Of a stretch of 64,000 bases of DNA, positions 10,989 to 63,610 are shown one piece after another (position 1 is the stretch's first letter; the number at the start of each line of letters is the position of its first letter). Position numbers and translations under genes: made by a program. The notes below the pieces were generated by a model. It saw nothing but the letters and a program-made list of their open reading frames with translations. It searched no databases and had not been told where the DNA came from. This stretch comes from Mayamaea pseudoterrestris (lineage: Eukaryota). Location: NCBI GenBank assembly GCA_027923505.1, contig BROI01000033.1, positions 62,001-126,000 of the forward strand, written 5' to 3'.

Positions 10989-11063
10989 ATTTAACATAAT
11001 GTTGGCATTACGTATTCCCTCATCTGTAAATTATACGTATACTATGACTAGTTAAGAATGCAA

Positions 11064-15585: not shown

Positions 15586-15946
15586 AGAGGCGCGCCTTGT
15601 TAGATGAAGCTATATGAGATAAACGTTAAACAATATTAATTGATCTTTTTCAAAAAATGATGAATACGCATGTGGGCTTGAATAGCATATGTGATGACTA
15701 TTATACTTCCGCCAATAACGTTCGTTGTCCATATGACTAATGGAACGAAAAGGCAATACAGCCACTGCCCGATTAGTAGCATTCTATTGCGAGATATATC
15801 GCCAGGAATGGCGCGGCAAGGTCTGAAAGTCGCTGATAGTGCAGTAGTCGAATGCTCTGGTTTGGACGGTCGACTTGCCTGGCATGGCGGCACACTCATT
15901 CCTCGTTACTTGTTGCACTCAATGCTGCCACCAATCAACGGCCTCA

Positions 15947-16537: not shown

Positions 16538-16841
16538 GGTTCTTCTTGCAGAATGATGACTGTGTAGTTGTGAGGACGACAACGAATTAAGAGCATTGTC
16601 GAATCGGTGAAGTGGATCTACTCGTGAAGTATCTTTGAAACGTCATCTAGTCTTTTCAATTGTGTAAACTGACGACGTCATCCGTTTCTCGACGAACGTC
16701 ATTGCGCCGCGCCAAGTGCTTCCACGTGAAGCGTGCTCGGACGGCGCAGCCATTGCTTTCTTCTCCGCGCACTCTCGTCTCACAACATTCGACCTCACGA
16801 GACTATTCTTGTTTGACTACCATAGCAAGACTCTACGTAAC

Positions 16842-23068: not shown

Positions 23069-23226
23069 AATGATCTTGTATTGAATATGATCCTCACTGT
23101 GCTTGCCTCTGGAGCAAACTCGGAAGATTTAGCGGAAGAATCTGTTTGGACGTCGCTGTTGCGCGCCGCGGCGTCACGCTAGTACGATTCATCCAATCAG
23201 ATCGATGAAACCTGTTGGGCCTTTTT

Positions 23227-23363
23227 TCAAAGTTATTGGCACTACTGTTCGATGCACAGTGCCAAAAACTTTGATATCTTTCAAAGTTTTTGGCACTACT
23301 TATTCAGCCACAGTAAACAACCGTTGAAAATCAAAGTTATTGGACTACTCTTTGATCCACAGT
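23227..23363. repeat. short intergenic direct/inverted repeat cluster in the divergent PFK/FkbM upstream region
   Basis: TCAAAGTT(A/T)TTGG(C)ACTACT..CACAGT at 23227, 23281, 23331; perfect 17-bp inverted repeat 23258-23274 / 23281-23297. Confidence 0.75.
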
Positions 23364-23547
23364 TGTTACTTTTGCACGACCGCCATTGATAACCTCTACG
23401 ACATTAAGTGTATCGGTATCGGCAGCAATCGATCATCATTCACAACCAGCCATGGCATTGGCCTACGGTAATTTGATCCCGCATCAGCTAGCATTCAAAA
23501 GCTGCAGCCTCCATGTACAGTTACAATATATATAACTCATCTGCATC

Positions 23548-24522
23548 ATGGTCTCTCGAATATCCAATCCACGAGGAGCGCATCAGCGCACCCGGCGGTC
23601 CAGTTCCATGGTGGTGCTTATAGTTGGATTCATTGGCGGCTTTTCGCTCTCCAAACTGTTGGATCGAATTGTTATGAATGGAGATGAATCAAGAATATCG
23701 TATATACTTGCAAAGCAATTACCAAACACCAAGGACTATAGGAGTAGCGACAGAATCGTGTCGGATGCTCATGGATGGGGCACGATTCATGTCTTTTACG
23801 GCGAGGCGTCTGCAATCTTTGGCGACGACACATCGCAACAATTCTTTGCACAAGTCAAGCAGGACGAGATTGTGTTGGATCTAATGCGAGACATTACAGA
23901 CAGAAGCAAGGTCAAATCCCAGGATGAACACCCATTCTTTTTCATTGATTTGGCTGCCAACGATGCCAAAACACTCAGCAACACGCTCGCACTGGAGCAG
24001 CGTGGTTGGCAAGGCCTTTGCATTGAACCGAACCCTGCTTACTAGTATGGACTCGCGCATCGTCGCAACTGCACCGTGATTGGAGCGCTGATCTCCGACA
24101 AGGTGGCGCCAACGCAGGTCAAGTTCCGAGGCGTCTTTGGTGGAATCGTTGGACAAATGGATGAAAAGCTGGCAAACCGTTTGCACGAGCCGGATCGAAT
24201 CGAGGAAACACGATATACTGTGCCGTTCGTAACGCTCCTTGCTCAGTTTCGAGTGCCGAAAGTGATTGATTATATGAGTCTCGACGTGGAAGGTGCCGAG
24301 TTTCTTGTCATGCACGATTTCCCGTTCGACGAGTACACCATTCAAATATTGACGGTAGAGCGTCCATCCAAACGACTGAAATCGCTTTTGGAGAGCCATG
24401 GTTACGTCTTTTTGAAAGATCTTGCCTGGTGGGGCGAAACCTTGTGGGCGCATCAATCTACTGGGCTGTCGCCACTGCATCCAAAGATTGTCAAAATCAA
24501 GACTGAGGGCAGGGATCGATGA
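23548..24522 (+). pseudogene. FkbM-family (Methyltransf_21) type II membrane methyltransferase interrupted by an in-frame TAG at 24043-24045
   Basis: TM segment; FFAQVKQD, FFIDLAANDAKTLSNT..LE..GWQGLCIEPNPAY*YGLAHRRNCTV, IDYMSLDVEGAE; frame continues through the stop. Could instead be a recoded gene or base-call error. Confidence 0.7.
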
Positions 24523-24740
24523 CGATTTTTATTAGTGACGTTACATGAAACACCTATAGAGAATATGGAAGTATAGAATTCATTTATAAAGTTAGAATTA
24601 CATAATGGTGAATGATTGTTTCCTCGTGTTACCCCTCGCACTTGCACTCCTTGCACTTGACTCGAGACGCGAATCAACGACAGGTTAAGGGATGTAAGAA
24701 TGTAAAGAGGTAGTCTTGCGCACGTTTCGCGTCTCGGAGT

Positions 24741-25258
24741 CTATTCGAGACCTTCCAAAGCATCTTCAACCTCGTCAACATGGGTGTGATGCGAGGAATG
24801 GAACCAACCACGTGCCTTGTTCTGAAGGTCTTTGCCGACTTCAAACCATCCAGGAAGAGGGTAGTGCTCCTGCTGAGACACCATCAAGTTTGGAGTTGCG
24901 TGGGCGACTAAATGAAGAAGTGACAAGATGGATCAGAAACAAGAGAACGATATCATGGCAGCGAGGGAATACAACTGCGAGTACATCAAGTCGCACGTCG
25001 CACGCCGCACGCACCTTCTTGTTTCACTTCCTTCATCGCTTCTGATAGTTCGTTTCCGTCTTCATGGATTTGAAACTCTTCCGGCACACCAAAATATGAA
25101 TCATCCAGCCCCCATCCAAAGGGATAGTACGGCTGGCCCAAATCTAAACCAGGAAGCACCTTGGAAGGCCCCATGATCGCCGTTGTCTCGATGCTGCGAC
25201 GAGCCGAAGCAACGCCAAGGAAAATGAGAGTTAAGAAGACAGTTGAGCGCATTATCAT
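24741..25258 (-). CDS. small secreted hypothetical protein; intron 25014-24908
   Basis: Signal peptide MIMRSTVFLTLIFLGVASA; donor G|GTGCGT and pyrimidine-rich acceptor ...CATTTAG join to the VAHATPNL...EDALEGLE exon. Confidence 0.65.
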
Positions 25259-25824
25259 TTTAGCTGATGACACTAGAGTATTGGCTAGCAAGTGGCGTTA
25301 ACGTGAGTGTATGACAAGTTGGATTCGAAAGAACAATGCAAGATCCATTATCCGCCAACTTGCGCGCGCTTCGGATCCGCAACTTCATCCACGACTAAAA
25401 CAATCCATCACGAGTCACGAGCAGTCACGCGTTGTCATGTCGTCCTTCCGCTACTCGGAGCTATCGTGACATTGCCAATCATCATTCTGTCTAGGGGGCT
25501 CGGTATATGGATGTGGTTGTGTTTAAATAGACTAGTACTCTTTTATGGTAAACTGTTAAATGTCTATTGTCTAACAAGAAACGCAAAGAAGTGTGATTGG
25601 ATACACAATTGGCTACAAACCAAGCCAACCAATTTGGCTATGAAATGTCACACTGGCAAGTGCCACAGCAAGTAGCTGGGCAGATGCATAAACAGTTAGC
25701 AGAATGGATCAAGGGATGTGGAGGAAAAGCTTGCAACTGATATATAGAATTGTTGTAGGAGGCAACAAAATAGGTGTGCACAAGGTTTGCTGGGAGGTGT
25801 AGTGGCTGGCAAGATACTACATAG

Positions 25825-26479
25825 GATTGGTGGTAACTTGTCACCAGTCTCAGCCAGCAGCTGCCATGCCCTTTAAATGCCCATACCTTGAGCCATGTGT
25901 ATGCCCCAATCAAGCCAGAATGGTGCTAACATCCTTATTTCAGGTGTGCTACAAGATGGGTTGCCTGGCTGGTGTCTCAGTGGACTGCAATGTGATTGGT
26001 GATAACTTGACACCAGTCTCAGCCAGCAGCTGCCATGCCTTTCAAATGCCCATACCTTGAGCCATGTGTATGCCCATATCAAGCCAGAATGATACTAACA
26101 TCCTTATTTCAGGTGAACTTCAAGGGAAGATGACTGGCTGCTGTATCAGTGGACTGCAATGTGATTGGTGATAACTTGTCACTTGCCATGCCTTTCAAAT
26201 GCTCATACCTTGAGCCATGTATATACCCAAATCAAGCCAGAATGGTGCTAACATCCTTATTTCAGGTGCGCTACAAAATATAATGACTGGCTGGTGTCTC
26301 AGTGGACTGCAATGTGATTGGTGATAACTTGTCACCAGTCTCAGCCAGCAGCTGCCATGCCTTTCAAATGCCCATACCTTGAGCCATGTGTATGCCCAAA
26401 TCAAGCCAGAATGGTTCAAACATCCTTATTTCAGGTGTGCTACAAGATAAGATGACTGGCTGGTGTTTCAGTGGACTGC
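25825..26479 (+). repeat. satellite family A (169-bp monomer), ~4 copies
   Basis: GATTGGTG(A/G)TAACTTG anchors at 25825, 25994, 26163, 26316 (169, 169, 153 bp). Confidence 0.95.
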
Positions 26480-29400
26480 TTGTTGGATCTGCAAGCTGAG
26501 TCTCACCATGGCACACATGGTGGTAGAGACTGAAATGGATGCTACTGAACAAAGCATTGGCCCATCAAGACAACAAACATGATTGAAAAGGATTTCAGGG
26601 CTCAGAAGGCAGCGCTGATGATCTTTATAGCCACAAAGTGTGCACTGCTGGCACATTCCACCATTGGTTGGATGTGCGGAGTCTCATGGCAAAGGGATGG
26701 GTTACACCCAAGGTGACAAGCCTATGAGTCCTAATCAAATTGAAACATAATGTTCGTTGTATTCCAGAATTGGCAGGCCATTCTGGCAGACAGAAGTGCC
26801 ATTGGAGGTGCACTGATAGCAGATCCAACAAGTTGTTGTCTCTGCTGAGTCCCACCATGGCATACGTGGTGTTGGAGACTGGAATGGGTGCAACTGACAA
26901 AAGCATTGGCTCATCATAATCAAACATGAGAAAGGATTCCAGGCTCGCTAGAAGGCAGCGCGATGATCTCCTGTAGCCAAAAAGGGTGCTGGCACATTCA
27001 ACCAGTATGGTGTGAGCGATGGGTGCACTGACAAAGCATTGAGTCCCGTGATGAATTGAGAACCAGCATAATGTTCTTTGTATTCCAGAATTGGCAGGCT
27101 TCTGGCAGTCAGAAGTGCCACTTGAGGTGCACTGCTACTGCAGATTCAACAAGTTGTTGAATCTGCAAGCCGAGTCTCACCATGGCACACATGGTGGTGG
27201 AGACTGAAATGGATGCAACTGACCAAAGCATTGGCCCATCATGACAACAAACATGAATCAGAAAAGTTTCAGGGCTCAGAAGGCAGCGCTGATGATTCCT
27301 GTAGCCAAAGGCCGCTGGCACATTCAACCATTGGAATGTGCGGAGTCTCATGGCAAAGGGATGGTTTCCACACCCAAGGTGACAAGCCTTTAAGTCCTCA
27401 TCAAATGAAAACACAATGTTCATTGTATTCCAATCTTGGCAGGCCATTCTGGCAGTCAGAAGTGTCACTTGGGTGCACTGCTAGCAGATTCAACAAGTTG
27501 TTGGATCAGCAAGCTGCGTCCCACCATGGCACACATGGTGGTGGAGACTGAAATGGATGCTACTGAACAAAGCATTAACCAATCAAGAAAACAAACATAA
27601 AATGAAAAGGATTTCAGGGCTCAGAAGGCAGCGCTGATGATCCCTGTAGCCAAAAAGGGTGCACCGCTGGCACATTCAACCATTGGTTGAATGTGTGGAG
27701 TCTCATGGCAAAAGGATGGGTTTCACACCCAAGGTGACAAGCCTTTGAGTCCTTATCAAATTGAAACATAATGGTTTTTGTATTCCAGAATTGGCAGGCA
27801 GTTCTCGCAGTCATAAGTGCCACTTGAGGTGCACTGCTAGCAGATCCAACAAGTTGTTGGATCTGCAAGCTGAGTCTCACCATGGCATACGTGGTGTTAG
27901 AGACTAGAATGGGTGCAACTGACCATAGCATTGGCCCGTCATGACACCAAACATGAATTGGAAAGGATTTCAGGGCTCAGAAGGCAGCGCTGATGATCCC
28001 TGTAGCCAAGAAGGGTGCACCGCTGGCACATTCAAAATTGAGTGAATGTGTGGAGTCTCTTGGCAAAATGATAGTTTCCACACCCAAGGTGACACGCCTT
28101 TGAGTCCTAATCAAATTGTAACACAATGTTCTTTATATTCCAGAATTGGCAGGCCATTCTGGCAGTCCGATGTGCCAATTAAGGTGCACTGCTAGCAGAT
28201 CCAACAAGTTGTTGGATTTGCAAGTATCACCATGGCATACGTGTCGGTGGAGACTGGAATGGGTGCAACTGAACACAAAGCATTGGCCAATCATGACACC
28301 AAACATGAATTGGAAAGGATTTCAGGGCTCAGAAGGCAGCGCTGATGATCCCTGTAGCCAAAATGGGTGCACCGCTGGCACATTCAACCATTGGTTGAAT
28401 GTGCGGAGTCTCATGGCAAAATGATGGTTTCCACACCCAAGGTGACAAGCCTTTGAGTCCCAATCAAATTGAAACATAATGTTCTTTGTATTCCAGAATT
28501 GGCAGGCCGTTCTGGCAGTCCAATGTGCCACTTGAGGTGCACTGCTAGCAGATCCAACAAGTTGTTGGATCTGCAAGCTGAGTCTCACCATGGCATACGT
28601 GGTGTTGGAGACTGGAATGGGTGCAACTGACCAAAGCATTGGCCCATCATGACACCAAACATGAATTGGAAAGGATTTCAGGGCTCAGAAGGCAGCGCTG
28701 ATGATCCCTGTAGCCAAAAAGGGAGCACCGCTGGCACATTCAATCATTGGTTGAATGTGCGGAGTCTCTTGGCAAAAGGATGGGTTCCACACCCAAGGTG
28801 ACAAGCCTTTGAGTCCTAATCAAATCGAAACACAATGTGCATTATATTCCAGAATTGGCAGACCGTTCTGGCAGTCAGAAGTGCCACTTGAGGTGCACTG
28901 CTAGCAGATCTAACAAGTTGTTGGATCTGCAAGCTGAGTCTCACCATGGCACACATGGTGGTAGAGACTGAAATGGATGCTACTGAACAAAGCATTGGCC
29001 CATCATGACACCAAACATGAATTGGAAAGGTTTTCAAGGCTCAGAAGGCAGGGCTGATGATCCCTGTAGCCAAAATGGGTGCACCGCTGGCACATTCAAC
29101 CATTGGTTGAATGTGCGGAGTCTCATGGCAAAAGGATGGTTTCCACACCCAAGGTGACAAGCCTTTAAGCCCTAATCAAATTGAAACATAATGTTCTTTG
29201 TATTCCAGAATTGGCAGACCGTTCTGGCAGTCAGAAGTGCCACTTGAGGTGCACTGCTAGCAGATTCAACAAGTTGTTGGATCTGCAAGCTGAGTCCCAA
29301 CATGACACACATGGTGGTGGAGACTGAAATGGATGCTACTGAACAAAGCATTGGCCCATCATGACACCAAACATAAAATGAAAAGGATTTCAGGGCTCAG

Positions 29401-32400
29401 AAGGCAGCGCTGATGATCCCTGTAGCTAAAAGGGTGCACTGCTGGCACATTCAACCAATGGTTGAATGTGCAAAGTCTCATGGCAAAGGGATGGTTTCCA
29501 CACCCAAGGTGACAAGCCTTTGAGTCCTAATCAATTTGAAACACAATGTTCGTTGTATTCCAGATTTGGCAGGCCATTCTGGCAGTCAGAAGTGCCACTT
29601 GAGGTGCACTGCTAGCAGATTCAACAACTTGGATGTGCAAGCTGAGTCCCACCATGGCATACATGGTGGCGGAGACTGAAATGGATGCTACTGAACACAG
29701 CATTGGCCCATCATGACACCAAACATGAATTGGAAAGGATTTCAGGGCTCAGAAGGCAGCGCTGATGATCCCTGTAGCCAAAATGGGTGCACCGCTGGCA
29801 CATTCAACCATTGGTTGAATGTGCGGAGTCTCATGGCAAAGGGATGGGTTCCACACCCAAGGTGACAAGCCTTTGAGTCCTAATCAATTTGAAACACAAT
29901 GTTCGTTGTATTCCAGATTTGGCAAGCCATTCTGGCAGTCAGAAGTGCCACTTGAGGTGCACTGCTAGCAGATTCAACAAGTTGTTGGATCTGCAAGCTG
30001 CGTCCCACCATGGCACACATGGTGGTGGAGACTGAAATGGATGCTACTGAACAAAGCATTGGCCTATCAAGACAACAAACATAAAATGAAAAGGATTTCA
30101 GGGCTCAGAAGGCACCACTGATGGTCCCTGTAGCCAAAAAGGGTGCACTGCTGGCACATTCCACCAATGGTTGAATGTGTGGAAGCTCATGGCAAAGTGA
30201 TGGTTTCCACACCCAAGATGACAAGCCTTTGAGTTCTAATCAATTTGAAACACAATGTTCGTTGTATTCCAGATTTGGCAGGCCATTCTGGCAGTCTGAA
30301 GTGCCACTTGAGGTGTACTGCTAGCAAATTCAACAAGTTGTTGGATCAGCAAGCTGCGTCCCATCATGGCACACATGGTGGTGGAGACTGAAATGGATGC
30401 TACTGAACAAAGCATTGGCCCATCAAGACAACAATCATGAAATGAAAAGGATTTCAGGGCTTGGAAAGCAGCGCTGATGATCCCTGTAGCCAAAAAGGGT
30501 GCCCCACTGGCACATTCAACCATTGGTTGAATGTGTGGAGTCTCATGGCAAAGGTATGGTTTCCACACCCAAGGTGACCAGCCTTTGAGTCCTAATCAAA
30601 TGGAAACACAATGTTCTTTGTATTCCAGTGTTGACAAGTGGTTCTGGCAGTCAGAAGTGCCACTTGAGGTGCACTGCTAGCAGATTCAACAAGTTGTTGG
30701 ATCTGCAAGCTGCGTCCCACCATGGCACACATGGTGGTGGAGACTGAAATGGATGCTACTGAACAAAGCATTGGCCTATCAAGACAACAAACATAAAATG
30801 AAAAGGATTTCAGGGCTCAGAAGGCAGCGCTGATGATCCCTGTAGCCAAAAAGGGTGCACTGCTGGCACATTCAACCAATGGTTGAATGTGCGGAGTCTC
30901 ATGGCAAAGGGATGGTTTCCACACCCAAGGTGACAAGCCTTTGAGTCCTAATCAATTTGAAACACAATGTTCGTTGTATTCCAGTGTTGACAAGTGGTTC
31001 TGGCAGTCTGAAGTGCCACTTGAGGTGCACTGCTAGCAGATTCAACAAGTTGTTGGATCTGCAAGCTGAGTCCCAACATGACACACATGGTGGTGGAGAC
31101 TGAAATGGATGCTACTGAACAAAGCATTGGCCCATCATGACACCAAACATAAAATGAAAAGGTTTTCAGGGCTCAGAAGGCAGCGCTGATGATCCCTGTA
31201 GCCAAAAAGGGTGCACTGCTGGCACATTCAACCAATGGTTGAATGTGCGGAGTCTCATGGCAAAGGGATAGGTTCCACACCCAAGGTGACGAGCCTTTGA
31301 GTTCTAATCAATTTGATACACAATCTTCGTTGTATTCTAGTGTTGACAAGTGGTTCTGGTAGTCTGAAGTGCCACTTGAGGTGCACTGCTAGCAAATTCA
31401 ACAAGTTGTTGGATCAGCGAGCTGCGTCCCACCATGACACACATGGTGGTGGAGACTGAAATGGATGCTACTGAACAAAGCATTGGCCCATCAAGACAAC
31501 AATTATGAAATAAATAGGATTTCAGGGCTCAGAAGGCAGCGCTGGTGATCCCTGTAGCCAAAAAGGGTGCACTGCTGGCACATTCAACCAATGGTTGAAT
31601 GTGCGGAAGCTCATGGCAAAGGGATGGGTACCACACCCAAGGTGACAAGCCTTTGAGTCCTAATCAAATTGAAACACAATGCACTTTCTATATCATTGTT
31701 GGCAAGCAGTTCTGGCAGTCAAAAGTGCCACTTGAGGTGCACTGCTAGCAGATCCAACAAGTTGTTGGATCTGCAAGCTGCGTCCCACCATGGCACACAT
31801 GGTGGTGGAGACTGAAATGGATGCTACTGAACAAAGCATTGGCCCATCAAGACAACAATCATGAAATGAAAAGGATTTCAGGGCTCAGAAGGCAGCGCTG
31901 ATGATCCCTGTAGCCAAAAAGGGTGCACTGCTGGCACATTCAACCAATGGTTGAATGTGCGGAGTCTCATGGCAAAGGGATGGTTTCCACACCCAAGGTG
32001 ACAAGCCTTTAAGTCCTCATCAAATGAAAACACAATGTTCATTTTATTCCAATCTTGGCAGGCCATTCTGGCAGTCAGAAGTGTCACTTGAGGTGCACTG
32101 CTAGCAGATTCAACAAGTTGTTGGATCTGCAAGCTGAGTCTCACCATGACACACATGGTGGTGGAGACTGAAATGGATGCTACTGAACAAAGCATTGGCC
32201 CATCAAGACACCAATCACGAAATGAAAAGGATTTCAGGGCTCAGAAGGCAGCGCTGATGATCCCTGTAGCCAAAAAGGGTGCACTGCTGGCACATTCAAC
32301 CAATGGTTGAATGTGCGGAGTCTCATGGCAAAGGGATGGTTTCCACACCCAAGGTGACAAGCCTTTGAGTCCTAATCAATTTGAAACTCAATGTTCGTTG

Positions 32401-34752
32401 TATTCCAGTGTTGACATGTGGTTCTAGCAATCTGAAGTGCCACTTGAGGTGCACTTCTAGCAGATCCAACAAGTTGTTGGATCTGCTAGCTGAGTCCCAC
32501 CATGGCACACATGCTGGTGGAGACTGAAATGGATGCTACTGAACAAAGCATTGGCCCATCAAGACACCAATTATGAAATGAAAAGGATTTCAGGGCTCAG
32601 AAGGCAGCGCTGATGATCCCTGTAGCCAAAAAGGGTGCACTGCTGGCACATTCAACCATTGGTTGAATGTGCGGAGTCTCATGGCAAAGGGGGAGGTTTC
32701 CACACCCAAGGTGATGAGCCTTTAAGTCCTCATCAAATGAAAACACAATGTTCATTGTATTCTATTATTGGCAGGCCATTCTGGCAGTCAAAAGTGACAC
32801 TTGAGGTGTACTGCTAGCAGATTCAACAAGTTGTTGGATCTGCAAGTTAAGTCCCACCATGGCACACATGGTGGTGGAGACTGAAATGGATGCTACTGAA
32901 CAAAGCATTGACACAGCAAGAGACCAATCATGAAATGAAAAGGATTGCAGGGCTCAGAAGGCAGCGCTGATGATCCCTGTAGCCAAAAAGGGTGCACTGC
33001 TGGCACATTCAACCAATGGTTGAATGTGCGGAGTCTCATGGCAAAGGGATGGGTTCCACACCCAAGGTGACAAGCCTTTGAGTCCTAATCGGATTGAAAC
33101 ACAATGTTCTTTTTATTCCAGAATTGGCAGACCATTCTGGCAGTCAGAAGTGTCACGTGAGGTGCACTGCTAGCAGATTCAATGAGTTGATGGATCTGCA
33201 AGGTGAGTCCCACCATGGCACACATGGTGGTGGAGACTGAAATGGATGCTACTGAACAAAGCATTGGCCCAGCCAGACACCAATCATGAAATGAAAAGGA
33301 TTTCACGGCTCAGAAGGCAACGCTGATGATCCCTGTAGCCAAGAAGGGTGCACTGCTGGCACATTGAAGCAATGGTTGAATGTGCGGAGTCTCATGGCAA
33401 AGGGATGGTTTCCACACCCAAGGTGACAAGCTTTTGAGTCCTAATCAAATGGAAACACAATGATCATTGTATTCCAGATTTGGCAGGCCATTCTGGCAGT
33501 CAGAAGTGCCACTTGAGGTGCACTGCTAGCAGATTCAACAAGTTGTTGGATCTGCAAGCTGCGTCCCACCATGGCACACATGGTGGTGGAGACTGAAATG
33601 GATGCTACTGAACAAAGCATTGGCCCATCAGGACACCAATTACGAAATGAAAAGGATTTCAGGGCTCAGAAGGCAGCGCTGATGATCCCTGTAGCCAAAA
33701 AGGGTGCACTGCTGGCACATTCAAGCAATGGTTGAATGTGCGGAGTCTCATGGCAAAGGGATGGTTTCCACACCCAAGGTGACAAGCCTTTAAGTCCTCA
33801 TCAAATGAAAACACAATGTTCATTGTATTCCAATCTTGGCAGGCCATTCTGGCAGTCAGAAGTGCCACTTGAGGTGCACTGCTAGCAGATTCAACAACTT
33901 GGATGTGCAAGCTGAGTTCCACCATGGCACACATGGTGGTGGAGACTGAAATGGATGCTACTGAACAAAGCATTGGCCCATCAAGACAACAATCATGAAA
34001 TGAAAAGGATTTCAGGGCTCAGAAGGCAGTGCTGATGATCCCTGTAGCCAAAAAGGGTGCGCTGCTGGCACATTCAACCAATGGTTGAATGTGCGGAAGC
34101 TCATGGCAAAGGGATGGGTTTCACACCCAAGGTGACAAGCCTTTGAGTCCTAATCAATTTGCAACACAATGCACTTTCCATATCATAATTGGCAAGCAGT
34201 TCTGGCAGTCAAAAATGCCACTTGAGGTGCACTGCTAGCAGATTCAACAAGTTGTTGGATCTGCAAGCTGAGTCCCACCATGGCACACATGGTGGTGGAG
34301 ACTTAAATGGATGCTACTGAACAAAGCATTGGCCCATCATGACACCAATCATGAAAGGAAAATAAATTTAGGGCTCAGAAGGCAGCGCTGATGATCCCTG
34401 TAGCCAAAAAGGGTGCACTGCTGGCACATTCAACCATTGGTTGAATGTGCGGAGACTCATGTCAAAGGGATGGTTTCCACACCCAAGGTGACAAGCCTTT
34501 GAGTCCTCATCAAAAGAAACACAATGTTCATTGTATTCCAGATTTGGCAGGCCAGTCAGAAGTGCCACTTGAGGTGCACTGCTAGCAAATCCAACAAGTT
34601 GTTGGATCTGCTAGCAGAGTCTTACCATGGCATATGCGGTGGTGGAGACTGGAATGGGTGCAACTGGCCAAATCATTGGCCCATCATTTAGACACCAAGA
34701 TGAATTGGAAAGGATTTCAGGGCTCAGAAGGTAGCACTGATGATCCCTGTAG
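26480..34752 (+). repeat. satellite family B, 356-bp dimeric unit (170+186 bp), ~23 copies
   Basis: GATTTCAGGGCTCAGAAGG anchors at 27610, 27966, 28318, 28674, 29030, 29386 ... 34364, 34713; modal spacing 356 bp. Confidence 0.97.
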
Positions 34753-34754
34753 GG

Positions 34755-35115
34755 GTGTTTGATTTGGGTGTATACATGGCTTGCTGTAGGGGCATTTGAA
34801 TGTCACGGCGTCTGCGGGTTGAGACTGGTGACAAGTTGTCACCAATCACATTGCTGTCTACTGAGACACCAGCCAAGCATACCATCTTGTAGCGCAGCCG
34901 GTAAAATGATGTTGGCACCATTCTGGTATAATTTGGGTGTATACATGGCTTGCTGTAGGGGCATTTGAATGTCAAGGCATCTGTGGGCTAGACTGGTGAC
35001 AAGTTGTCCCCAATCAAATTTCTGTCTACTGTGACACCATCCAAGCATACCATCTTGTAGCACAACCTCAAAAATGATGTTAGCACCATTCTGGTATAAT
35101 TGGGTGCATACATGG
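34755..35115 (-). repeat. satellite family A, inverted, subfamily A2, ~2 copies
   Basis: Reverse complement of A (GAGACTGGTGACAAGTTGTCACCAATCACATTG); TTTGGGTGTATAC at 34763 and 34932 (169 bp). Confidence 0.9.
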
Positions 35116-36197
35116 GTGGTGGCTGGCAGGCAGCATGGGTTTCAGCTACTCAAATACACTCAATTGCCATAGCCATGGGCCAGGTAGTTTCAATATGAGT
35201 CTCTGCGGTTGCTGGGCATGCATTAAGAATGTAGGATGTGCAATCCATTCAATGGTATACCAACAAACCCTCTAGTAAAATGACCGGGGTTGGGTTCAGC
35301 ATGGGTGTTAGCTACTCAAACACACTCAATAGCCATAGCCATGGGCCAGCCAGCTTCAATAGAAATCTCTGCGGTTGCTAGACATGGATTGCGATCAATT
35401 CAATGGTATACCTTCAAACCCTTCAGTAAAATGACTGGGGTTGAGTGGGATTTGGTGGTGGATGGCAGGCAGCATGGGTTTCAGCTTTTCAAACACACTC
35501 AATAGCATAGCCATGGGCCAGCCAGCTTCAATATGAGTCTCTGCGGTTACTAGGCATGAGGTAAGAATGTAGGATTAGCAATCCATGCAATGGTATACCT
35601 TCAATCCCTCCTGTAAAATGATTGGGGTTAGGTTCAGCATGGGATCCAGCTACTCAAACACACTCAATAGCCATAGCCATGGGCCAGCCAGCTTCAATAT
35701 GAGTCTCTGCGGTTGCTAGGCATGCATAAAATATGTAGGATGTGCAATCCATTCAATGGTATACCATCAAACCCTCCAGTAAAATGACCGTTCTTCGGTG
35801 GGGTTTATTGGTGGCTGGCAGGAGCATGGGTTTCAACTACTCAAACACACCCAATAGCCATAGCCATGGGCTAGCCAGCTTCAATATGAGTCTCTGTGGT
35901 TGCTAGGCATGGATTAAGGAGTTAGATGTGCAATCCATTCAATGATATACTTTCAAACCTTCCAGTTAAATGACCGGGGTTGGGTGGGGTTTGGTGGTGG
36001 CTGGCCGGCCGGCAGCTCTCAAACACACTCAATAGCCATAGCCATGGGCCAGCCAGCTTCAATATGAGTCTCTGCGGTTGCTAGGCATGGATTAAGGATC
36101 TAGGATGTGAAATCCATTCAATGGAATACCTACAAACCCTCCAGGAAAATGTCGGGTTAGGTTCAGCATGGGTTTCAGCTACTCAAACACTCTCAAT
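35116..36197 (+). repeat. satellite family C (~165-187-bp monomer), ~6 copies
   Basis: ACTCAATAGCCATAGCCATGGG-type anchors at about 35158, 35324, 35497, 35662, 35849, 36027, 36191. Confidence 0.92.
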
Positions 36198-36625
36198 CGG
36201 TGACAACTTGTCACCAGTTTCAGCCAGCAGCTGCCATGCCTTTCAAATGCCCATACCTTGAGCCAGGTGTATGCCCAAATCATGCCAGTACGGTGCTAAC
36301 ATCCTTATTTCAGGTAAACAACAAGATAAGGTGACTGGCTGGTGTCTCAGTGGACTGCGATGTGATTGGTGATAACTTGTCACCAGCCAGCAGCTGCCAT
36401 GCCTTTCAAATGCCCATACCTTGAGCCATATGTATGCAGCAATCAAGCCAAAACGGTGCTAACATCCTTATTTCAGGTGTGCTACGAGATAAGATGAGTG
36501 GCTGCTGTCTCAGTGGACTGCAATGTGATTGGTGATAACTTGTCACCAGTCTCAGCCAGCAGCTGCCATGCCTTTCAAATGCTTATACCTTGAGCCATGT
36601 GTATGCCCAAATCAAGCCAGAATGG
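36198..36625 (+). repeat. satellite family A, forward, ~2.5 copies
   Basis: GGTGA(C/T)AACTTGTCACC at 36199, 36368, 36531; same variants as the 25825 array. Confidence 0.93.
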
Positions 36626-36729
36626 CGACTAGCAAGGCAAACCTCGGACAATTGAAGTGCTGTCAACCAGTATTATGGCAGGAAATATTAAATTACACTG
36701 CACGCAAGTAGCTAGTTTTAGAAAGATAA

Positions 36730-38352
36730 TTATCGCCCGGCAGCCAGCTTGTTGTAATTCTTCAAACCCATGATCTGTTGAAATCGTTCCACCATTAACT
36801 CTCGTGACAAGGAAGCAGCGCCTTGCTGATCTGATCTTATCCAATTACTAGCGGCTTGGTACAATGCACGCAGAGCCTTGCTTGTGCTCTCGGGTGAATC
36901 TGCATCGTCGACTGCTGTTCGAAATGCTTCGCATGCCTTGTCCCATTGCTTGCGACCCGCATAGCAGCATGCCAAGCTATATCTTGGTGCAAACGCACTA
37001 GGCATTGCGTCAAGTGCTTTTTGATAATATTGTATTTCCTCATCCTTGCCTTCGTACAGCACGCCAAGGTTGCAGTACGCAGTCGACAGTGCCGTGGATT
37101 TGGCGCGCGGAATGTCAATCAGCTTTCTATAGTACTTCTCCTCCGATTGTCGATCCCCATGTGCACAGCAGACTTGCGCCATGGTGGAAAGCGCGTCAAC
37201 ATCATACGGGTCACCCTTTAAACAAATCTCCATGCACGACTTGGCCTTGTCGTAGAGTTGCTGCTCAATACATAGGCACCCCAGCGTGTAGGCGCATTCG
37301 CCACTGCTCGAATGAATGTGCTCCAGGCAATATTCCAATGTTTCGCGTGCCTTTGCCATCTCGCCGCGACGATCATATTCGTTTGCCAATAAATTGTAGG
37401 CAGCGTCGCAGGCTGGATTTATCACGACAGCTGCTTCCAGTGCTCGTAGTTGCTCATCCGCTGATGTTTTCGCGTCTGGCGTCAATAATTGTCGAACTAG
37501 TTCTGGTCGGTTTTGATGCATACAGAATCCTCCAATGATATACCGCGTCCCAGATTCGACGGCGTGTCCGCAGTGCTTGACACCACCAGGTCGAATCGTC
37601 ACTTGACCTGCCGCATTCATTTCCAACACACCGTCATTTTCCTCAAGTCCTTCAAACCAAGTACCTCCTCCGGTATATTCATCCCTGCTGTTCAGTGCAA
37701 TGGTGAAGGATATTGCTCCACTATCCGTGTGAACGTCGGTGCGTTGGCCAGTCTCGCGCGTATATTTAAAAAGGTAGGCATTATCAACACAAATATCATC
37801 GGGAGAAGCAAAAAAGTTGTCAAACTGTTGACTCAACAAAGGGAATAGCCGTTCTCTGCAAGTCTTGGTGAACCATTCATGCACGCTAGGAACACTCTTG
37901 ATGAAAAAGCCGGCGACTTGATATTGGCCCGAGCTTTGCAAAGGCCATTCGCCTCGAAAATGGTCCTCCGCCATGCGAATGACTTGATCGCATTCCTCCT
38001 TGCTCAACAATGAAATAGGATCCGTCACATGAATGTTTCGTTCCAGTTCGTCTGCGAAATCGGGCAAGCATCCTGGCCCTTGAATGGAATAAGTCTTGAG
38101 TGATGGTTGCTGTAAAAGTGAGGAGGAACTCGACCCACTGTTAGCCGAGTTGGTGGGGTAGTTTTGTAATGCTCGCTCAACGGCTCGTTTCTGTCGCTTC
38201 ATTGCCAGCGCCTTGGCGTCTTGTATTTGTTGGTCGTTGACATGAGCTAGAAATGGTGGTCGTAGATTGGTGGATTGATGTGCATTAGTCGCCGAATCAA
38301 CAACGGATAAGGCGACTATAAAAAGTCCATGTAAATAATTATGTGGTCTCAT
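36730..38352 (-). CDS. 2OG-Fe(II) dioxygenase (prolyl/lysyl-hydroxylase-like) fused to C-terminal TPR repeats
   Basis: Signal peptide-like N-terminus; LLSKEECDQVI, VHTDSG (HxD), YTGGGTWF, KHCGHAVESGTRYIIGGF; TPR motifs AYCNLGVLY, RYSLACCY. Confidence 0.85.
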   Translation of the reverse strand: MRPHNYLHGLFIVALSVVDSATNAHQSTNLRPPFLAHVNDQQIQDAKALAMKRQKRAVERALQNYPTNSANSGSSSSSLLQQPSLKTYSIQGPGCLPDFADELERNIHVTDPISLLSKEECDQVIRMAEDHFRGEWPLQSSGQYQVAGFFIKSVPSVHEWFTKTCRERLFPLLSQQFDNFFASPDDICVDNAYLFKYTRETGQRTDVHTDSGAISFTIALNSRDEYTGGGTWFEGLEENDGVLEMNAAGQVTIRPGGVKHCGHAVESGTRYIIGGFCMHQNRPELVRQLLTPDAKTSADEQLRALEAAVVINPACDAAYNLLANEYDRRGEMAKARETLEYCLEHIHSSSGECAYTLGCLCIEQQLYDKAKSCMEICLKGDPYDVDALSTMAQVCCAHGDRQSEEKYYRKLIDIPRAKSTALSTAYCNLGVLYEGKDEEIQYYQKALDAMPSAFAPRYSLACCYAGRKQWDKACEAFRTAVDDADSPESTSKALRALYQAASNWIRSDQQGAASLSRELMVERFQQIMGLKNYNKLAAGR

Positions 38353-38645
38353 GGTTCCGGATAGCAGGCTAAATTCTGTCACCGGCTTTGTTCACAAGCA
38401 ACGACAGCTCTGAATGAGACGGATGGATTGTTGTGATGTTGAAGTGCGCAATGGAACGAGTGACGCTGCGATGAGAAAAAGAACGCCAGAAACGTCAGTT
38501 TCCAGTTGCTCCAGCTACGAGTGTTTCAATTAGCGCCAATTACAGTTACAGTGCTGTTACTGATAACAACTGTACTGCATCTTCTGGAAATCTACTTAAA
38601 TAACTGATTATGAATAAACTAAAGTTTGGTTTGGCGGAAGAATAG

Positions 38646-40220
38646 TTACTGAAACGCCCCGCATCCAATATCGAATGAATGATATGCTGCACTCGAAAGC
38701 GAAGGTCCGGAAAGGCTGCTTGCAAAGCTTTGCGATTCGCCCAGCGTTTGCCACTTTCTCAGTGTTTCGTTGAAATTGACGTACACTTGATTTTCTCCCA
38801 GCTGACATGCCGGCTGCTGCTGGGTGAGCCCTGTACCGACTGATCCGTCAAAAAAGTCTCCAATTTCCGAATTGTCACTTTCGGTATCTTCAGAGTGGAC
38901 AATCCTTGGAGCGAGGTAAAACGAAGACTCATCCATAGAGGAAGAACAGTCGGTGGAGTCCCCTTCATCTGAAAGACTTGGCAGCTCAAGCGTCAATGTG
39001 TCGCTCGTCTGCGACGAGCTTAACGAGATGGTGGCTCTTTTTGGTGACGGTGTCTTTGGTACCACAGGAACAAGCACTGGAGAACAAGTTGAGACTGTCG
39101 TCTTTGGCACCTTAAAGTCACTATGATTTTTAGTTGCTTCAGGCGAAGGGCGCTTCGACGGGCGAGTCGACGCAGGCGCAGCAGCATTCACACCCTTGAG
39201 CTTTAAGCCAGCAAGTCCCCAGCATTGAATCGCATTCAACTTGGCATGCCACAGCGCCATTTCTCGGTTCGGCCGCGAAAGGTTGCGACTAATCTCTCTC
39301 AACTGCTCGGCCGGTAGTCCATTGTTGTCAACCACCGACTCGACCATCATTTTCTGTCCCATGAATCGGTTCTCGGCACTATAGTATCGTTCGCAGCCCG
39401 TGGCGCATTGATAAGGCTGAAGAGTCATGTCATTGATAAAGAGATCCGTGCCACTGCCGTGCTTTCGGACCGTTAGTATAGCCTGCTTCATGTCTTGGCG
39501 CTGCGAAACAATGTCGCGGCGACTGTACCAGCGAATTTCCTTGTCCAAACGTGACAGTTGTTCAATACTTTCGGTCAAGTGGTGAATGATAGGAGGTTCG
39601 GTATCGAAGCGTACGTTGCGTGGTGTAGGCGTGACTGGATGTATCAACACTTCGTCTTCGTCAACGACGGACTCGTCCAGAATAGTGATGCGGCTCGAGA
39701 CGGGGCTTTCCAAGACGTTACTTGCTGCCCGCAAAAGTTCCGTTTCCATGGAAACCTCAGACGGCTCCAACATTGACGTTGCATTTGAAAATGTTTCTTC
39801 CGATAGAGTGCTGTTGGAAGTCGCAGTCGACGTGGATGCATCATCATAGTCGTCAAAGGAGGGGCATCCTCGAAAGACTGCAAACTTGAGCTTTGCCAGG
39901 AGACCCGATTGCTCGGCAGCTGAGAGGTCCGCAATAATGTCTTCACTGGAAAGCGAATCGTACGTGGAGCCGGTGCAGACACTCTTGTCCAATGCAGATG
40001 ACGAAAGGGAATGATCAGCATCAATTAGCTTGTCTTTTTTGTTGGATCCTTTCTTAAATTGACGTCTGTTGCGAGCAATGTAGAGTGCCTTGTCCGCGCG
40101 TGTCGGAACCGATGGAGGCCGAGGTATGGGTGAAATGCTTCTCGAAGGATGACTACTCTGTAAACTCGGCAGAGCAGGATAGGAAGGAAATAGTTGAATG
40201 GTGCTGCTCATGGTAGACAT
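38646..40220 (-). CDS. hypothetical Ser-rich protein resembling the diatom 'VxF...WY...CxxGxE' family
   Basis: ~525-aa ORF; RNVRF...IRWYSRRDI...CATGCERY arrangement. Confidence 0.6.
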   Translation of the reverse strand: MSTMSSTIQLFPSYPALPSLQSSHPSRSISPIPRPPSVPTRADKALYIARNRRQFKKGSNKKDKLIDADHSLSSSALDKSVCTGSTYDSLSSEDIIADLSAAEQSGLLAKLKFAVFRGCPSFDDYDDASTSTATSNSTLSEETFSNATSMLEPSEVSMETELLRAASNVLESPVSSRITILDESVVDEDEVLIHPVTPTPRNVRFDTEPPIIHHLTESIEQLSRLDKEIRWYSRRDIVSQRQDMKQAILTVRKHGSGTDLFINDMTLQPYQCATGCERYYSAENRFMGQKMMVESVVDNNGLPAEQLREISRNLSRPNREMALWHAKLNAIQCWGLAGLKLKGVNAAAPASTRPSKRPSPEATKNHSDFKVPKTTVSTCSPVLVPVVPKTPSPKRATISLSSSQTSDTLTLELPSLSDEGDSTDCSSSMDESSFYLAPRIVHSEDTESDNSEIGDFFDGSVGTGLTQQQPACQLGENQVYVNFNETLRKWQTLGESQSFASSLSGPSLSSAAYHSFDIGCGAFQ

Positions 40221-40551: not shown

Positions 40552-40701
40552 CCTTTAGGCTTCGTTTTCACTGGCACCCGTTTCACACATATGCCTTTAG
40601 GCTTCGTTTTCACTCATAAGCCTTTAGGCTTCGTTGTCACTGGCACTCGTTTCACACATAAGCCTTTAGGCTTCGTTTTCACTGGCACTCGTTTCATACT
40701 A
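40552..40701 (+). repeat. 42-bp minisatellite, ~3.6 copies (one internally deleted)
   Basis: CCTTTAGGCTTCGTT(T/G)TCACT at 40552, 40594, 40621, 40663. Confidence 0.9.
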
Positions 40702-62936: not shown

Positions 62937-63610
62937 GTAAGTTCTCACCAGTCACATTACAGTCTACTGAGACACCAACCAGGCATACCATCTTCAAACG
63001 CAGACTAAAAAATGATGTTGGCATTATTCTGGTGTGATTTGGGTGAATACATGGCATGTTATATGGGCAATTGAATGACAAGGCATCTGTGGGCTGAGAC
63101 AAGTGAGAAGTTCTCACCAATCACATTGCAGTCTACTTATTTAACTACCGGGCATACCATCTTGTAGCTCAGACTGAATAATGATGTTGGCACCATTCTG
63201 GTGTGGTTTAGGTGTATACATGGCATGTTATATGGGCAATTGAATGACAAGGCATCTGTGGGCTGAGACTGGTGAGAAGTTCTCACCAGTCACATTGCAG
63301 TCTCCAAAAACACACCATGCCCTCCATCGTGTAGCGCAGCCTGTAAAATGATCTTGGCATCATTCTGGTGTAATTTGGGCACCTACAGGGCATGCTGAAG
63401 GGGCGTTTGAATGTCATGGCATCTGCGGGCTGAGACTGGTGACAAGTTGTCACCAGAAACATTGCCATCCCCTGAGACACCAACCAAGCCTACCATCCTG
63501 TAGCGCAGCTGGAATAATGATGTTGGTACCATTCTGGTGAATTTTGGGCACCTACAGGGCTTGCTGTAGGATCGTTTGAATGTCATGGCATCTGTGGGCT
63601 GAGACTGGTG
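62937..63610 (-). repeat. dispersed array of satellite family A (A2 subfamily, inverted), ~4 copies
   Basis: GTT(C/G)TCACCA anchors at 62941, 63110, 63279, 63446 (169, 169, 167 bp); matches 34755-35115. Confidence 0.93.

What the first reader, a model, noticed from the sequence alone, without database searches (positions are those of the whole stretch)
25825..36625. 10.8-kb composite satellite island of three nucleosome-length repeat families (A> B> <A C A>): candidate centromeric/heterochromatic or mobile tandem-repeat system
Seen: in otherwise gene-dense DNA, a gene-free block made of A (169 bp), B (356 = 170+186 bp) and C (~165-187 bp) arrays abutted directly and bracketed by same-orientation A arrays. 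All three families have monomers of about one nucleosome repeat. Known: nucleosome-length monomers and dimeric higher-order units typify plant/animal centromeric satellites, whereas CENH3-mapped Phaeodactylum centromeres are low-GC and essentially non-satellite. Inference: this may be an undescribed diatom satellite system (centromere, heterochromatin seed or composite mobile element).
Basis: partly seen in the sequence, partly recalled or inferred. Interest (0 to 1): 0.85.

Follow-up and report, generated by a model that had tools for sequence, protein, structure and literature searches.

The report
Methylation-scarred satellite DNA island, freshwater diatom
This is a real 10.8-kb gene-free patchwork of three unrelated satellite repeats lying between ordinary diatom genes; it looks like long-methylated silent DNA made of repeats that are abundant across the genome, and nothing here shows that it is a centromere.

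Summary
A (169 bp, +) lies at 25825-26479, B (356 bp, +) at 26480-34752, an inverted A at 34759-35112, C at 35131-36195 and A (+) at 36196-36625. A fourth, diverged A array lies at 62954-63610.

One ORF is 100% identical to a protein named from Mayamaea pseudoterrestris. That species' genome paper lists zero satellites.

- CpG observed/expected is 0.18 in the island against 1.06-1.09 in the flanks, with sharp edges. This is the footprint of long-term CpG methylation.
- In three short-read contig sets, word depth over A and C is 10^2-10^4 times that of the flanks, and over B about 3-280 times. The families are therefore genome-wide repeats.
- The island fails the low-GC criterion of mapped diatom centromeres.
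- No transposon features were found.
- A and B units carry conserved palindromic boxes, and several array ends fall at these boxes.

Best reading: an interstitial heterochromatic satellite island. A centromere role is untested. This scan noted similar islands before on other DNA of this genome.

The parts
25825..26479 (+). A1: array of four 169-bp A monomers, subfamily A-I. It starts 4 nt before a palindromic box and ends at monomer position 164.
   Evidence: TRF; BLASTN; monomer alignment; junction read; CpG o/e 0.03
26480..34752 (+). B: array of 24 full or partial 356-bp units, each with two box-bearing halves (186+170). Units are about 90-92% alike; edge units 2 and 24 are the most diverged. 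Its first base is the first base of the right arm of a B1 palindromic box.
   Evidence: TRF; BLASTN; unit alignment and identity matrix; box variants; CpG o/e 0.19
34759..35112 (-). A': about 2.1 inverted A monomers of subfamily A-II (74-82% to A-I, 82-84% to A4). This stretch has by far the highest read depth.
   Evidence: BLASTN; alignment; depth (1.0-1.3 million against about 110-160 in the flanks, run X1)
35131..36195 (+). C: about 6 units alternating about 165 and 187 bp (dimeric period about 352-365). No strong dyad.
   Evidence: TRF; BLASTN and sequence read; CpG o/e 0.22
36196..36625 (+). A3: about 2.6 A-I monomers. It starts at monomer position 2 and ends in mid-monomer, 105 bp from the stop codon of a TPR gene.
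   Evidence: BLASTN; alignment; junctions; contigs of runs X1 and X2 bridge 36577-37923
62954..63610 (-). A4: separate small array of about 4.0 A-II-like monomers in an intergenic gap. It is CpG-depleted, and both ends fall inside the palindromic box.
   Evidence: TRF; BLASTN; alignment; ends; CpG o/e 0.23
27840..27866 (.). Example of the B1 palindromic box (13-nt arms, 1-nt centre). 21 copies were located in the array.
   Evidence: hairpin of the 35-nt stretch 27836-27870 that holds this box -14.7 kcal/mol, z -7.4
29090..29116 (.). Example of the B2 palindromic box (perfect 13-nt arms). It differs from B1 by symmetry-keeping double changes.
   Evidence: hairpin -12.1 kcal/mol, z -6.3
34826..34844 (.). 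Example of the A-family palindromic box (8-9-nt arms, 1-nt centre), one per 169-bp monomer.
   Evidence: hairpin -7.3 kcal/mol, z -3.5

Best explanation
The block is an interstitial island of satellite DNA in the nuclear genome of a small-genome freshwater pennate diatom, by protein identity Mayamaea pseudoterrestris. It is assembled from three unrelated satellite families that are abundant elsewhere in the genome. It has most probably been kept as CpG-methylated, silent chromatin for a long time.

Shown:
- The arrays, their orientation and their tight junctions.
- Units of about one nucleosome repeat (169; 186+170; about 165/187 bp).
- One 17-35-nt palindromic box per roughly 170-186 bp in A and B.
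- A sharp CpG depletion with TpG/CpA excess.
- Read depth far above single copy in three read sets, clear for A and C and weaker for B.

Inferred:
1. CpG methylation followed by deamination. Diatom genomes are described as isolated, highly CG-methylated repeat islands in otherwise unmethylated DNA.
2. Growth and partial homogenisation of each array by unequal exchange. B units are 90-92% alike, identity decays slightly with distance, and the edge units are the most diverged.
3. A patchwork origin by breakage and end-joining. A1 and A3 are one monomer population and fit in phase (position 164 to position 2), as if the 9.7-kb segment B-A'-C had been put into a single A-I array.
4. The palindromic boxes are preferred break or join points. 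B begins exactly at a box centre. The separate A4 array is a whole number of monomers bounded by two half-boxes, as expected if a hairpin or cruciform was cut, or a circular multimer was opened, before insertion.

No cellular function beyond forming a silent chromatin block is shown.
For: Anatomy.

CpG depletion. CpG o/e is 0.18 in the island (110 CpG in 10,801 bp) against 1.06 and 1.09 in the flanks. TpG and CpA are 1.72/1.73 against about 1.2. TpA is not raised (0.41 against 0.55-0.59), so this is not RIP-like. In 2-kb windows the value drops from 0.91 to 0.19 at the left edge and is back at 0.80 in the 2-kb window that holds the right edge and 1.07 in the next. A4 has 0.23. Within B, CpG sites segregate with TpG/CpA variants, for example columns 7, 121, 252 and 283.

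Known diatom pattern: PMC9998398, Introduction passage read.

Abundance (summed contig word depth, which the tool warns is not a copy number):
- Run X1: flanks about 107-159, with one repeat-touched bin at 241; A1 76,000-120,000; B 2,000-35,000; A' bins 1.0-1.3 million; C 64,000-108,000; A3 94,000.
- The same ranking holds in X2 (flanks about 27-55) and X3 (about 5-12).
- These are three runs from two studies.

Right edge: contigs spanning 36577-37923 in X1 and X2 bridge it, with 49 nt inside the array.

A1 and A3: identity between the two arrays (87-94%) equals identity within them (88-93%).

Boxes:
- 42 of 61 palindromes in the window (arm at least 9, at most 1 mismatch) lie in the island: 3.9 per kb against 0.36 per kb.
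- B1 against B2: 3 of 13 arm pairs changed on both sides; 94.9% of cells paired against 24-36% when the partner is slid.
- A4a/b carry a G:C where A-II has C:G at the same arm pair.

Array ends: 5 of 10 A and B array ends lie within 12 nt of a box centre (binomial P 0.009) and 3 of 10 within 5 nt (P 0.023).
Against: - Methylation is inferred from sequence decay only. No methylation data were seen.
- Depth from assembled contigs is a rough measure. For B the excess over its own 24 local copies is modest (lower bound about 3-fold), so other B loci are likely but not proven.
- No whole genome was held, so the number and placing of other loci was not counted. Look-ups of A, A', B and C in this scan's index of other windows found 0 windows each.
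- Within this B array the boxes are not significantly better conserved than the rest of the unit (diversity 0.079 against 0.104; 34% of random window pairs are as low). Selection on the boxes is therefore not shown; arm-to-arm copying would also keep symmetry.
- The array-end statistics are post hoc, use thresholds chosen after looking, and rest on 10 ends, 5 of which are far from a box.
- The internal order and copy number of the 8.3-kb B array rest on a nanopore assembly with read N50 8.6 kb. Only short contigs were laid, and no listed piece spans the stretch.
Confidence: 0.62

Rival explanations
1. The island is the centromere of this chromosome, or part of its pericentromere. On this reading the species has satellite-based centromeres, unlike Phaeodactylum.
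For: - Nucleosome-length monomers, dimeric higher-order units and layered unrelated satellites.
- Dyad symmetries once per unit, a trait reported as enriched in centromeric satellites (PMC5889037, abstract seen in a search listing).
- The A family, especially A-II, has the highest depth of the stretches laid. In many eukaryotes the most abundant tandem repeat is centromeric (recalled, not from a call).
- No Phaeodactylum-type low-GC region exists anywhere in the 64-kb window to compete.
Against: - The high-depth A-II variant occupies only 354 bp here. Most of the island is B, the least abundant of the three families.
- A second A-family array lies 26 kb away, and an earlier unchecked note reports a 29-kb island 32 kb upstream on the same piece, plus at least four more on other pieces. 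That is more islands than one per chromosome would suggest.
- The surroundings are ordinary housekeeping genes with normal CpG and no transposons (0 of 38 ORFs scanned). Genes lie within 105 bp and about 530 bp of the edges.
- The centromeres mapped in Phaeodactylum, and those predicted by the same low-GC measure in Fistulifera, are low-GC and lack satellite arrays (10.1101/096016 and 10.1101/2021.11.10.468027, passages read).
Confidence: 0.17
2. The block is, or lies inside, a mobile element: a composite or foldback transposon, a Helitron-type carrier of tandem repeats, or a retrotransposon-derived array that moves as a unit.
For: - Oppositely oriented A arrays bracket B.
- A-family arrays occur at two separate loci in the window.
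- A4 is a whole number of monomers bounded by half-boxes, which fits insertion of an excised or circular piece.
- Reviews describe rolling-circle spread and transposon-borne tandem repeats (PMC10048060, passages read).
Against: - The inverted A arrays belong to different subfamilies (74-82% alike), so they are not a recent terminal repeat pair.
- I saw no target-site duplication and no TC...CTRR ends at the island or at A4 (read).
- No transposase, reverse transcriptase, integrase or Rep/helicase domain in the island or anywhere in the window.
- No tRNA- or 5S-like sequence.
Confidence: 0.07
3. The order or size of the island is an assembly artefact: a chimera or a mis-sized collapse of satellite reads.
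For: - The assembly merges two nanopore assemblies with read N50 8.6 kb, shorter than the island.
- No laid record spans the island, and many contigs show alternative joins within B (table 5).
- At the left edge I saw only contigs that stop there; most laid pieces are not listed.
Against: - The right edge is bridged in two runs of two studies.
- B units differ by 8-10% with unit-specific variants and an orderly identity matrix, which makes placement tractable.
- The junctions are clean and single.
- The CpG boundary coincides exactly with the repeat boundary.
Confidence: 0.07

Closest known systems
Composite satellite-DNA islands of heterochromatin, and dispersed short satellite arrays in gene-rich arms (e.g. 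Tribolium castaneum about 170-bp tandem repeats in euchromatin, PMC4675708, abstract in listing; review PMC10048060, passages read)
   Same: Non-coding head-to-tail units of about 170 bp. Unrelated families abut directly. Dimeric higher-order units occur. The same family appears both as high-copy DNA and as short arrays between genes. Edge units are more diverged.
   Different: The host is a 30-Mb diatom genome whose published repeat table lists no satellites. The islands are only about 0.7-11 kb here and lie within about 100-500 bp of active-looking genes. The CpG-decay footprint is sharp.
Satellite-based regional centromeres with dyad symmetries (non-B-form DNA at centromeres, Kasinathan & Henikoff 2018, PMC5889037; abstract seen in listing only)
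   Same: Nucleosome-length monomers, each carrying a short dyad symmetry predicted to form a hairpin or cruciform.
   Different: No CENH3 evidence. Several islands appear to lie on one contig. The boxes here are longer (arms of 8-17 nt) than the under-10-bp dyads described in that abstract.
Mapped diatom centromeres of Phaeodactylum tricornutum and predicted ones of Fistulifera solaris (10.1101/096016; 10.1101/2021.11.10.468027; passages read)
   Same: Only the host lineage: raphid pennate diatoms with small genomes.
   Different: Those are short, a few kb at most, with low GC (100-bp windows at or below 32%; 36-42% in Fistulifera) and lack the highly repeated elements typical of other centromeres; a few hold small repeats. 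This island is 47% GC with 0 of 10,701 windows at or below 32%, and it is wholly repetitive.
PpSat1/PpSat2 satellites of the oomycete Phytophthora parasitica (PMC7290008; passages read)
   Same: Satellite families in a stramenopile, with high-copy arrays plus low-copy and solo copies. The authors also raise a candidate centromere role from abundance alone.
   Different: Different sequences. The word stem 'methylat' does not occur in that paper's main text.
Isolated CG-methylated repeat islands of diatom genomes (Hoguin et al. 2023, PMC9998398; abstract and passages read)
   Same: A sharply bounded repeat island in otherwise CpG-normal, presumably unmethylated, gene-dense DNA.
   Different: The islands described there are repeats and transposable elements, mostly near telomeres. 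Here the content is pure satellite, and methylation is only inferred.

Membership tests
Satellite DNA | Head-to-tail tandem arrays of a non-coding unit | tested here: met
   TRF; BLASTN. No Pfam match for the four repeat-frame ORFs scanned and no Rfam match.
Satellite DNA | High copy number in the genome, beyond the locus itself | tested here: met
   word depth 10^2-10^4 times flank depth for A and C in 3 of 3 well-covered runs. For B it is about 16-280 times in X1, against 24 local units, so B is the least certain. This is a rough measure; no assembly-wide count was possible.
Satellite DNA | Packaged as heterochromatin or methylated | tested here: inconclusive
   Indirect only: CpG o/e 0.18 against 1.06-1.09 with TpG/CpA excess. 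No methylation or histone data were available.
Satellite-based regional centromere | CENH3/CENP-A nucleosomes on the array | not testable with these tools
   No ChIP data. No RNA or chromatin run was listed.
Satellite-based regional centromere | One such domain per chromosome | tested here: inconclusive
   A second A array lies in the window. Earlier unchecked notes report another island 32 kb upstream on the same piece and several on other pieces. The whole genome is not held.
Phaeodactylum-type diatom centromere | Cluster of 100-bp windows at or below 32% GC, and at least 500 bp below about 33% GC | tested here: not met
   0 of 10,701 windows in the island. The lowest 500-bp GC in the whole window is 39.8%.
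Phaeodactylum-type diatom centromere | No repeats or conserved sequence | tested here: not met
   The island is entirely tandem repeats.
DNA transposon, Helitron or composite element | Terminal repeats or defined ends, target-site duplication, and an element-encoded enzyme or relatives of one | tested here: not met
   The ends read show no TSD and no TC...CTRR. The inverted A arrays are 74-82% alike and belong to different subfamilies. No transposon domain in 38 ORFs.
RIP-mutated repeat (fungal type) | C-to-T changes giving a TpA excess | tested here: not met
   TpA o/e is 0.41 in the island against 0.55-0.59 in the flanks. The excess is in TpG and CpA.

The most novel reading that the evidence does not exclude
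Mayamaea-type diatoms may have replaced the low-GC, repeat-free centromeres of Phaeodactylum with satellite-based ones. These would be built on the 169-bp A family and its palindromic box. On this reading the present island is a centromeric or pericentromeric module. If the many small islands are all active, it would be one site of a dispersed, repeat-based centromere of the kind known from holocentric rushes and sedges. A weaker form of the reading: the palindromic boxes are cis-acting break and join sites that let satellite blocks move and recombine as cassettes.
Probability: 0.15. Interest if true: 0.8.

Novelty: new member of a known kind. Interest (0 to 1): 0.4.

Why it matters
The model diatoms are described as having low-GC centromeres that lack repeats, and my library searches found no paper on diatom satellite DNA. 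A 30-Mb freshwater diatom appears to carry large amounts of nucleosome-length satellites. They were probably filed as 'unclassified' repeats (7.36% of the assembly, against 'Satellites 0').

This shows that the heterochromatin content of diatom genomes is more varied than the models suggest. It also gives concrete probes for asking what a centromere is in this lineage: the A-I, A-II, B and C units and their palindromic boxes.

The sharp CpG-decay boundary within about 100 bp of a gene is a clean natural case of tightly confined silencing. The array ends at palindrome centres are a testable lead on how satellite blocks break and join. This island is only one of several noted by the scan in this genome, and its function is not shown.

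Tried and rejected
- Whole-genome route. No genome is held for the window, so the proposed BLASTN of A, B and C against the assembly could not be run.
- This scan's index. Sequence look-ups with B, A1, C and A', and a 'relatives' look-up, found 0 windows each. The 'near' look-up found nothing. This says little, because the index needs about 90% identity for short DNA and withholds reports that touch mine.
- Metagenome scan with the 20-nt A-II box. It returned 60 loci, each with a single match. BLASTN of the island and A4 against them gave only matches of 22-42 nt around the pattern itself, and none spanned a monomer. These are chance or unrelated matches, not relatives.
- Sequencing runs. No RNA holder was listed, so nothing can be said on transcription.
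- Laid contigs. No listed contig spans the island, and I saw only contigs that stop at the left edge. This is no evidence either way.
- Rfam at E up to 1 on 22000-38000. Only two sub-threshold miRNA-like hits at 23227-23299, outside the island. A tRNA or 5S origin of the satellites is rejected.
- Relationship between A, B and C: none beyond chance words.
- Higher-order structure in B beyond the 356-bp unit: none. Identity is 91.7% at lag 1 and falls only to 90.0% at lag 11.
- Stronger conservation of the boxes than of the rest of the B unit: not found.
- Transposon reading: rejected for lack of any defining feature.
- RIP-like mutation: rejected on dinucleotide pattern.


Full report
**1. Is it there?**

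Yes. Tandem Repeats Finder reports five abutting arrays between 25825 and 36619, and nothing comparable in the flanks except one more 169-bp array at 62939-63610.

BLASTN with single units gives the following layout:

| Array | Coordinates | Strand | Content |
|---|---|---|---|
| A1 | 25825-26479 | + | four monomers |
| B | 26480-34752 | + | 24 full or partial 356-bp units |
| A' | 34759-35112 | - | about 2.1 monomers |
| C | 35131-36195 | + | about 6 units |
| A3 | 36196-36625 | + | about 2.6 monomers |

- TRF places the start of B at 27070 only because the first two units are truncated or diverged. B in fact follows the last A base directly.
- A, B and C share only chance words of 7-19 nt.
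- B has two box-bearing halves spaced 186 and 170 bp apart. Only 52 nt around the boxes still align, at 71%.
- C alternates units of about 165 and 187 bp.

**2. Whose DNA, and what surrounds it?**

A 1097-aa ORF (53873-57166, minus strand) is 100% identical to an NCBI protein named as from Mayamaea pseudoterrestris, on a contig of 278,135 bp.

The genome paper for that species (PMC9724779; passages and Table S3 read) describes:
- a 30.6-Mb assembly in 41 contigs, made from nanopore reads with N50 8.6 kb;
- 19% repeats, 'mainly' Ty1/Copia;
- 'Satellites: 0 elements, 0 bp', and 2,255,301 bp (7.36%) 'Unclassified';
- no use of the word 'satellite' in its main text.

The window is otherwise ordinary gene-dense DNA. 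It holds MutS/Smr, zuotin, DnaJ, PFK, an FkbM-type methyltransferase (23536-24522), TPR proteins, 2-oxoglutarate dehydrogenase, a Gbeta-like WD40 protein, a kinase, UGGT and two tRNA-Asp genes. None of the 38 ORF translations scanned has a transposon domain.

The stretch without long ORFs or Pfam matches runs from about 24.5 to 36.7 kb. An unannotated 103-aa ORF (24986-25297, minus strand) is the only candidate gene in it. The stop codon of a TPR gene lies 105 bp from the island's right edge.

**3. Chromatin footprint.**

| Region | CpG o/e | TpG / CpA o/e | TpA o/e |
|---|---|---|---|
| Island (110 CpG in 10,801 bp) | 0.18 | 1.72 / 1.73 | 0.41 |
| Flanks | 1.06 and 1.09 | about 1.2 | 0.55-0.59 |
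| A4 (657 bp) | 0.23 | 1.70 / 1.75 | 0.64 |

- The change is abrupt at both edges.
- Within B, individual CpG columns segregate with TpG or CpA variants.
- This is the classical trace of long-term CpG methylation and deamination. It is not RIP-like, because TpA is not raised.
- It fits the published picture of diatom genomes as isolated, highly CG-methylated repeat islands in otherwise unmethylated DNA (PMC9998398, passages read).
- Methylation itself was not observed here.

**4. Local oddity or genome-wide repeats?**

No genome is held. I therefore laid the assembled contigs of four coded public runs on 23000-38500.

| Stretch | X1 depth | X2 depth | X3 depth |
|---|---|---|---|
| Unique flanks | about 107-159 (one bin 241) | about 27-55 | about 5-12 |
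| A1 | 76,000-120,000 | 8,483-16,872 | 6,330-9,844 |
| B | 2,000-35,000 | 93-2,362 | 121-1,578 |
| Two bins holding A' | 1.0-1.3 million | 144,826-205,546 | 91,650-127,122 |
| C | 64,000-108,000 | 4,846-6,536 | 3,265-4,758 |
| A3 | 94,000 | 18,969 | 14,401 |

- The ranking is the same in all three runs.
- The tool warns that summed contig depth is not a copy number. I use it only to say that sequence at least 90% like A and C is orders of magnitude more abundant than one locus can supply, and that B is more abundant than its 24 local units, with less margin.
- Contigs 36577-37923 in X1 and X2 (two studies) bridge the right edge.
- No listed record spans the island.
- The fourth run, X6, held only traces.

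**5. Centromere?**

The only experimentally mapped diatom centromeres are defined by clusters of 100-bp windows at or below 32% GC, and they lack repeats (10.1101/096016, passages read). The same criterion was applied to Fistulifera (10.1101/2021.11.10.468027).

- The island has 0 of 10,701 such windows. The lowest 500-bp GC in the whole window is 39.8%.
- That excludes a Phaeodactylum-type centromere. It does not exclude a satellite-type one.

Against a satellite-type centromere:
- The families are not locus-specific.
- The very abundant A-II variant fills only 354 bp here.
- Another A array lies 26 kb away.
- Earlier notes of this scan, which I could not check, report a 29-kb satellite island 32 kb before the window on the same piece, and islands of 12-37 kb on other pieces.
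- The neighbourhood is transposon-free, with normal CpG and housekeeping genes.

For it:
- Nucleosome-length units.
- Dyad symmetries.
- The abundance of the A family.

I put the centromere or pericentromere reading at about 0.17.

**6. Palindromic boxes.**

- Of 61 palindromes in the window with arms of at least 9 nt and at most 1 mismatch, 42 lie in the island: 3.9 per kb against 0.36 per kb. Two more lie in A4.
- Each B unit has two 27-nt boxes (13-nt arms, 1-nt centre). Each A monomer has a 17-21-nt box. C has none of this strength.
- Predicted DNA hairpins are -14.7, -12.1, -7.3 and -11.7 kcal/mol (z from -3.5 to -7.4). The A-I variant with mismatched arms is not stable: -3.2 kcal/mol, z -1.1.
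- Between B1 and B2, 3 of 13 arm pairs differ on both sides while staying complementary. 94.9% of cells pair, against 24-36% when the partner is slid. These are at least three events, each inherited by many copies.
- A4a/b carry G:C where A-II has C:G at the same arm pair.
- Symmetry has thus outlasted sequence. Within this array, however, the boxes are not better conserved than the rest of the unit. Selection and arm-to-arm copying cannot be told apart.

**7. How the patchwork arose (inference).**

- A1 and A3 are one population: 87-94% alike between arrays and 88-93% within.
- A1 stops at monomer position 164 and A3 resumes at position 2. This looks as if a single A-I array had received the 9.7-kb segment B-A'-C.
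- A' belongs to another subfamily (A-II, shared with A4), so it is not a local inversion of A1 or A3.
- The left end of B is exactly the first base after the centre of a B1 box.
- A4 begins and ends inside its box and is 4.0 monomers long.
- A1 and A3 each start 3-4 nt before a box.
- In all, 5 of 10 A and B array ends lie within 12 nt of a box centre (P 0.009) and 3 of 10 within 5 nt (P 0.023). The thresholds were chosen after looking, and the other five ends are far from any box.
- This suggests that hairpin or cruciform-prone boxes are preferred break and join points. It also suggests that short arrays such as A4 may derive from excised or circular multimers. Rolling-circle spread of satellites is discussed in PMC10048060 (passages read).
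- B units are 90-92% alike. Identity falls only from 91.7% at lag 1 to 90.0% at lag 11, and the edge units are the most diverged. That pattern is expected from unequal exchange in an array that is not young.

**8. Rivals rejected or down-weighted.**

- Transposon. I saw no defined ends and no target-site duplication, and no enzyme. The inverted A arrays are only 74-82% alike.
- tRNA or 5S origin: none.
- Assembly artefact. This is possible for the copy number of B. One edge is bridged independently, the units are individually distinct, and the CpG boundary matches the repeat boundary.
- Relatives in metagenomes: the one scan gave only chance matches.

**9. Novelty and score.**

This is satellite DNA, a known kind, in a lineage where it appears not to have been described. 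The library searches found no paper on diatom satellite DNA, and the species' own paper lists none. This scan has already noted several similar islands in the same genome, so this island adds detail rather than a new class. The added detail is the subfamily structure, the insertion phase, the ends at box centres, the depth ratios and the failed low-GC test.

- Interest: 0.4.
- Boldest reading not excluded: a satellite-based, possibly dispersed, centromere system in this diatom. Probability about 0.15.

Noticed in passing
window 62954-63610: A separate array of 4.0 A-II-like monomers on the minus strand, in an intergenic gap 26 kb from the island. It is CpG-depleted (o/e 0.23) and bounded on both sides by halves of the palindromic box. 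It looks like an inserted whole-number multimer.
   Followed up: partly
window 23200-23345: Three copies of a motif of about 55 nt (CAAAGTT-TTGGCACTAC...CACAGT) lie between the PFK and FkbM-methyltransferase genes. There are weak sub-threshold miRNA-like Rfam hits, and read depth is about 8 times that of the flanks in the bin 23000-23516. It may be a small dispersed repeat or a promoter element.
   Followed up: no
window 40552-40696: Short tandem repeat (periods 27/42/69, 91-95% matches) containing the palindrome AAGCCTTTAGGCTT. It lies in the gap between the ORFs 38646-40220 (minus strand) and 41050-42357 (plus strand), which point away from each other, so it may be a repeated promoter motif.
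   Followed up: no
window 59530-59601 and 59697-59769: Two tandem tRNA-Asp(GTC) genes 96 bp apart.
   Followed up: no
window 53873-58989 (minus strand): The two ORFs 53873-57166 and 57244-58989 are parts of one UDP-glucose:glycoprotein glucosyltransferase gene. The matching named protein has 1681 aa and carries the Pfam domains of both ORFs, so a short intron or frame break lies near 57170-57240.
   Followed up: partly
window 23000-25800 and 36626-38200: The unique flanks differ from the laid contigs at about 1-2% of positions (for example 18 in 902 nt and 17 in 1347 nt in run X1). This fits the 2.97% heterozygosity reported for the strain, or a strain difference.
   Followed up: no
loci L001-L060 (metagenome contigs): The exact 20-nt A-II palindrome occurs once in each of 60 unrelated metagenome contigs, some with 34-42-nt extended similarity. 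By my rough reckoning that is more than chance would give for a 20-mer, so it may be a conserved bacterial palindromic site. It is unrelated to the diatom satellite.
   Followed up: no
window 26749-27069: The second B unit is only 72-78% like the full units 3-23 (68% to the truncated first unit, 82% to the partial last) and has 66 nt (27004-27069) that do not align to the B unit. It may be an old edge unit or a small foreign patch.
   Followed up: no
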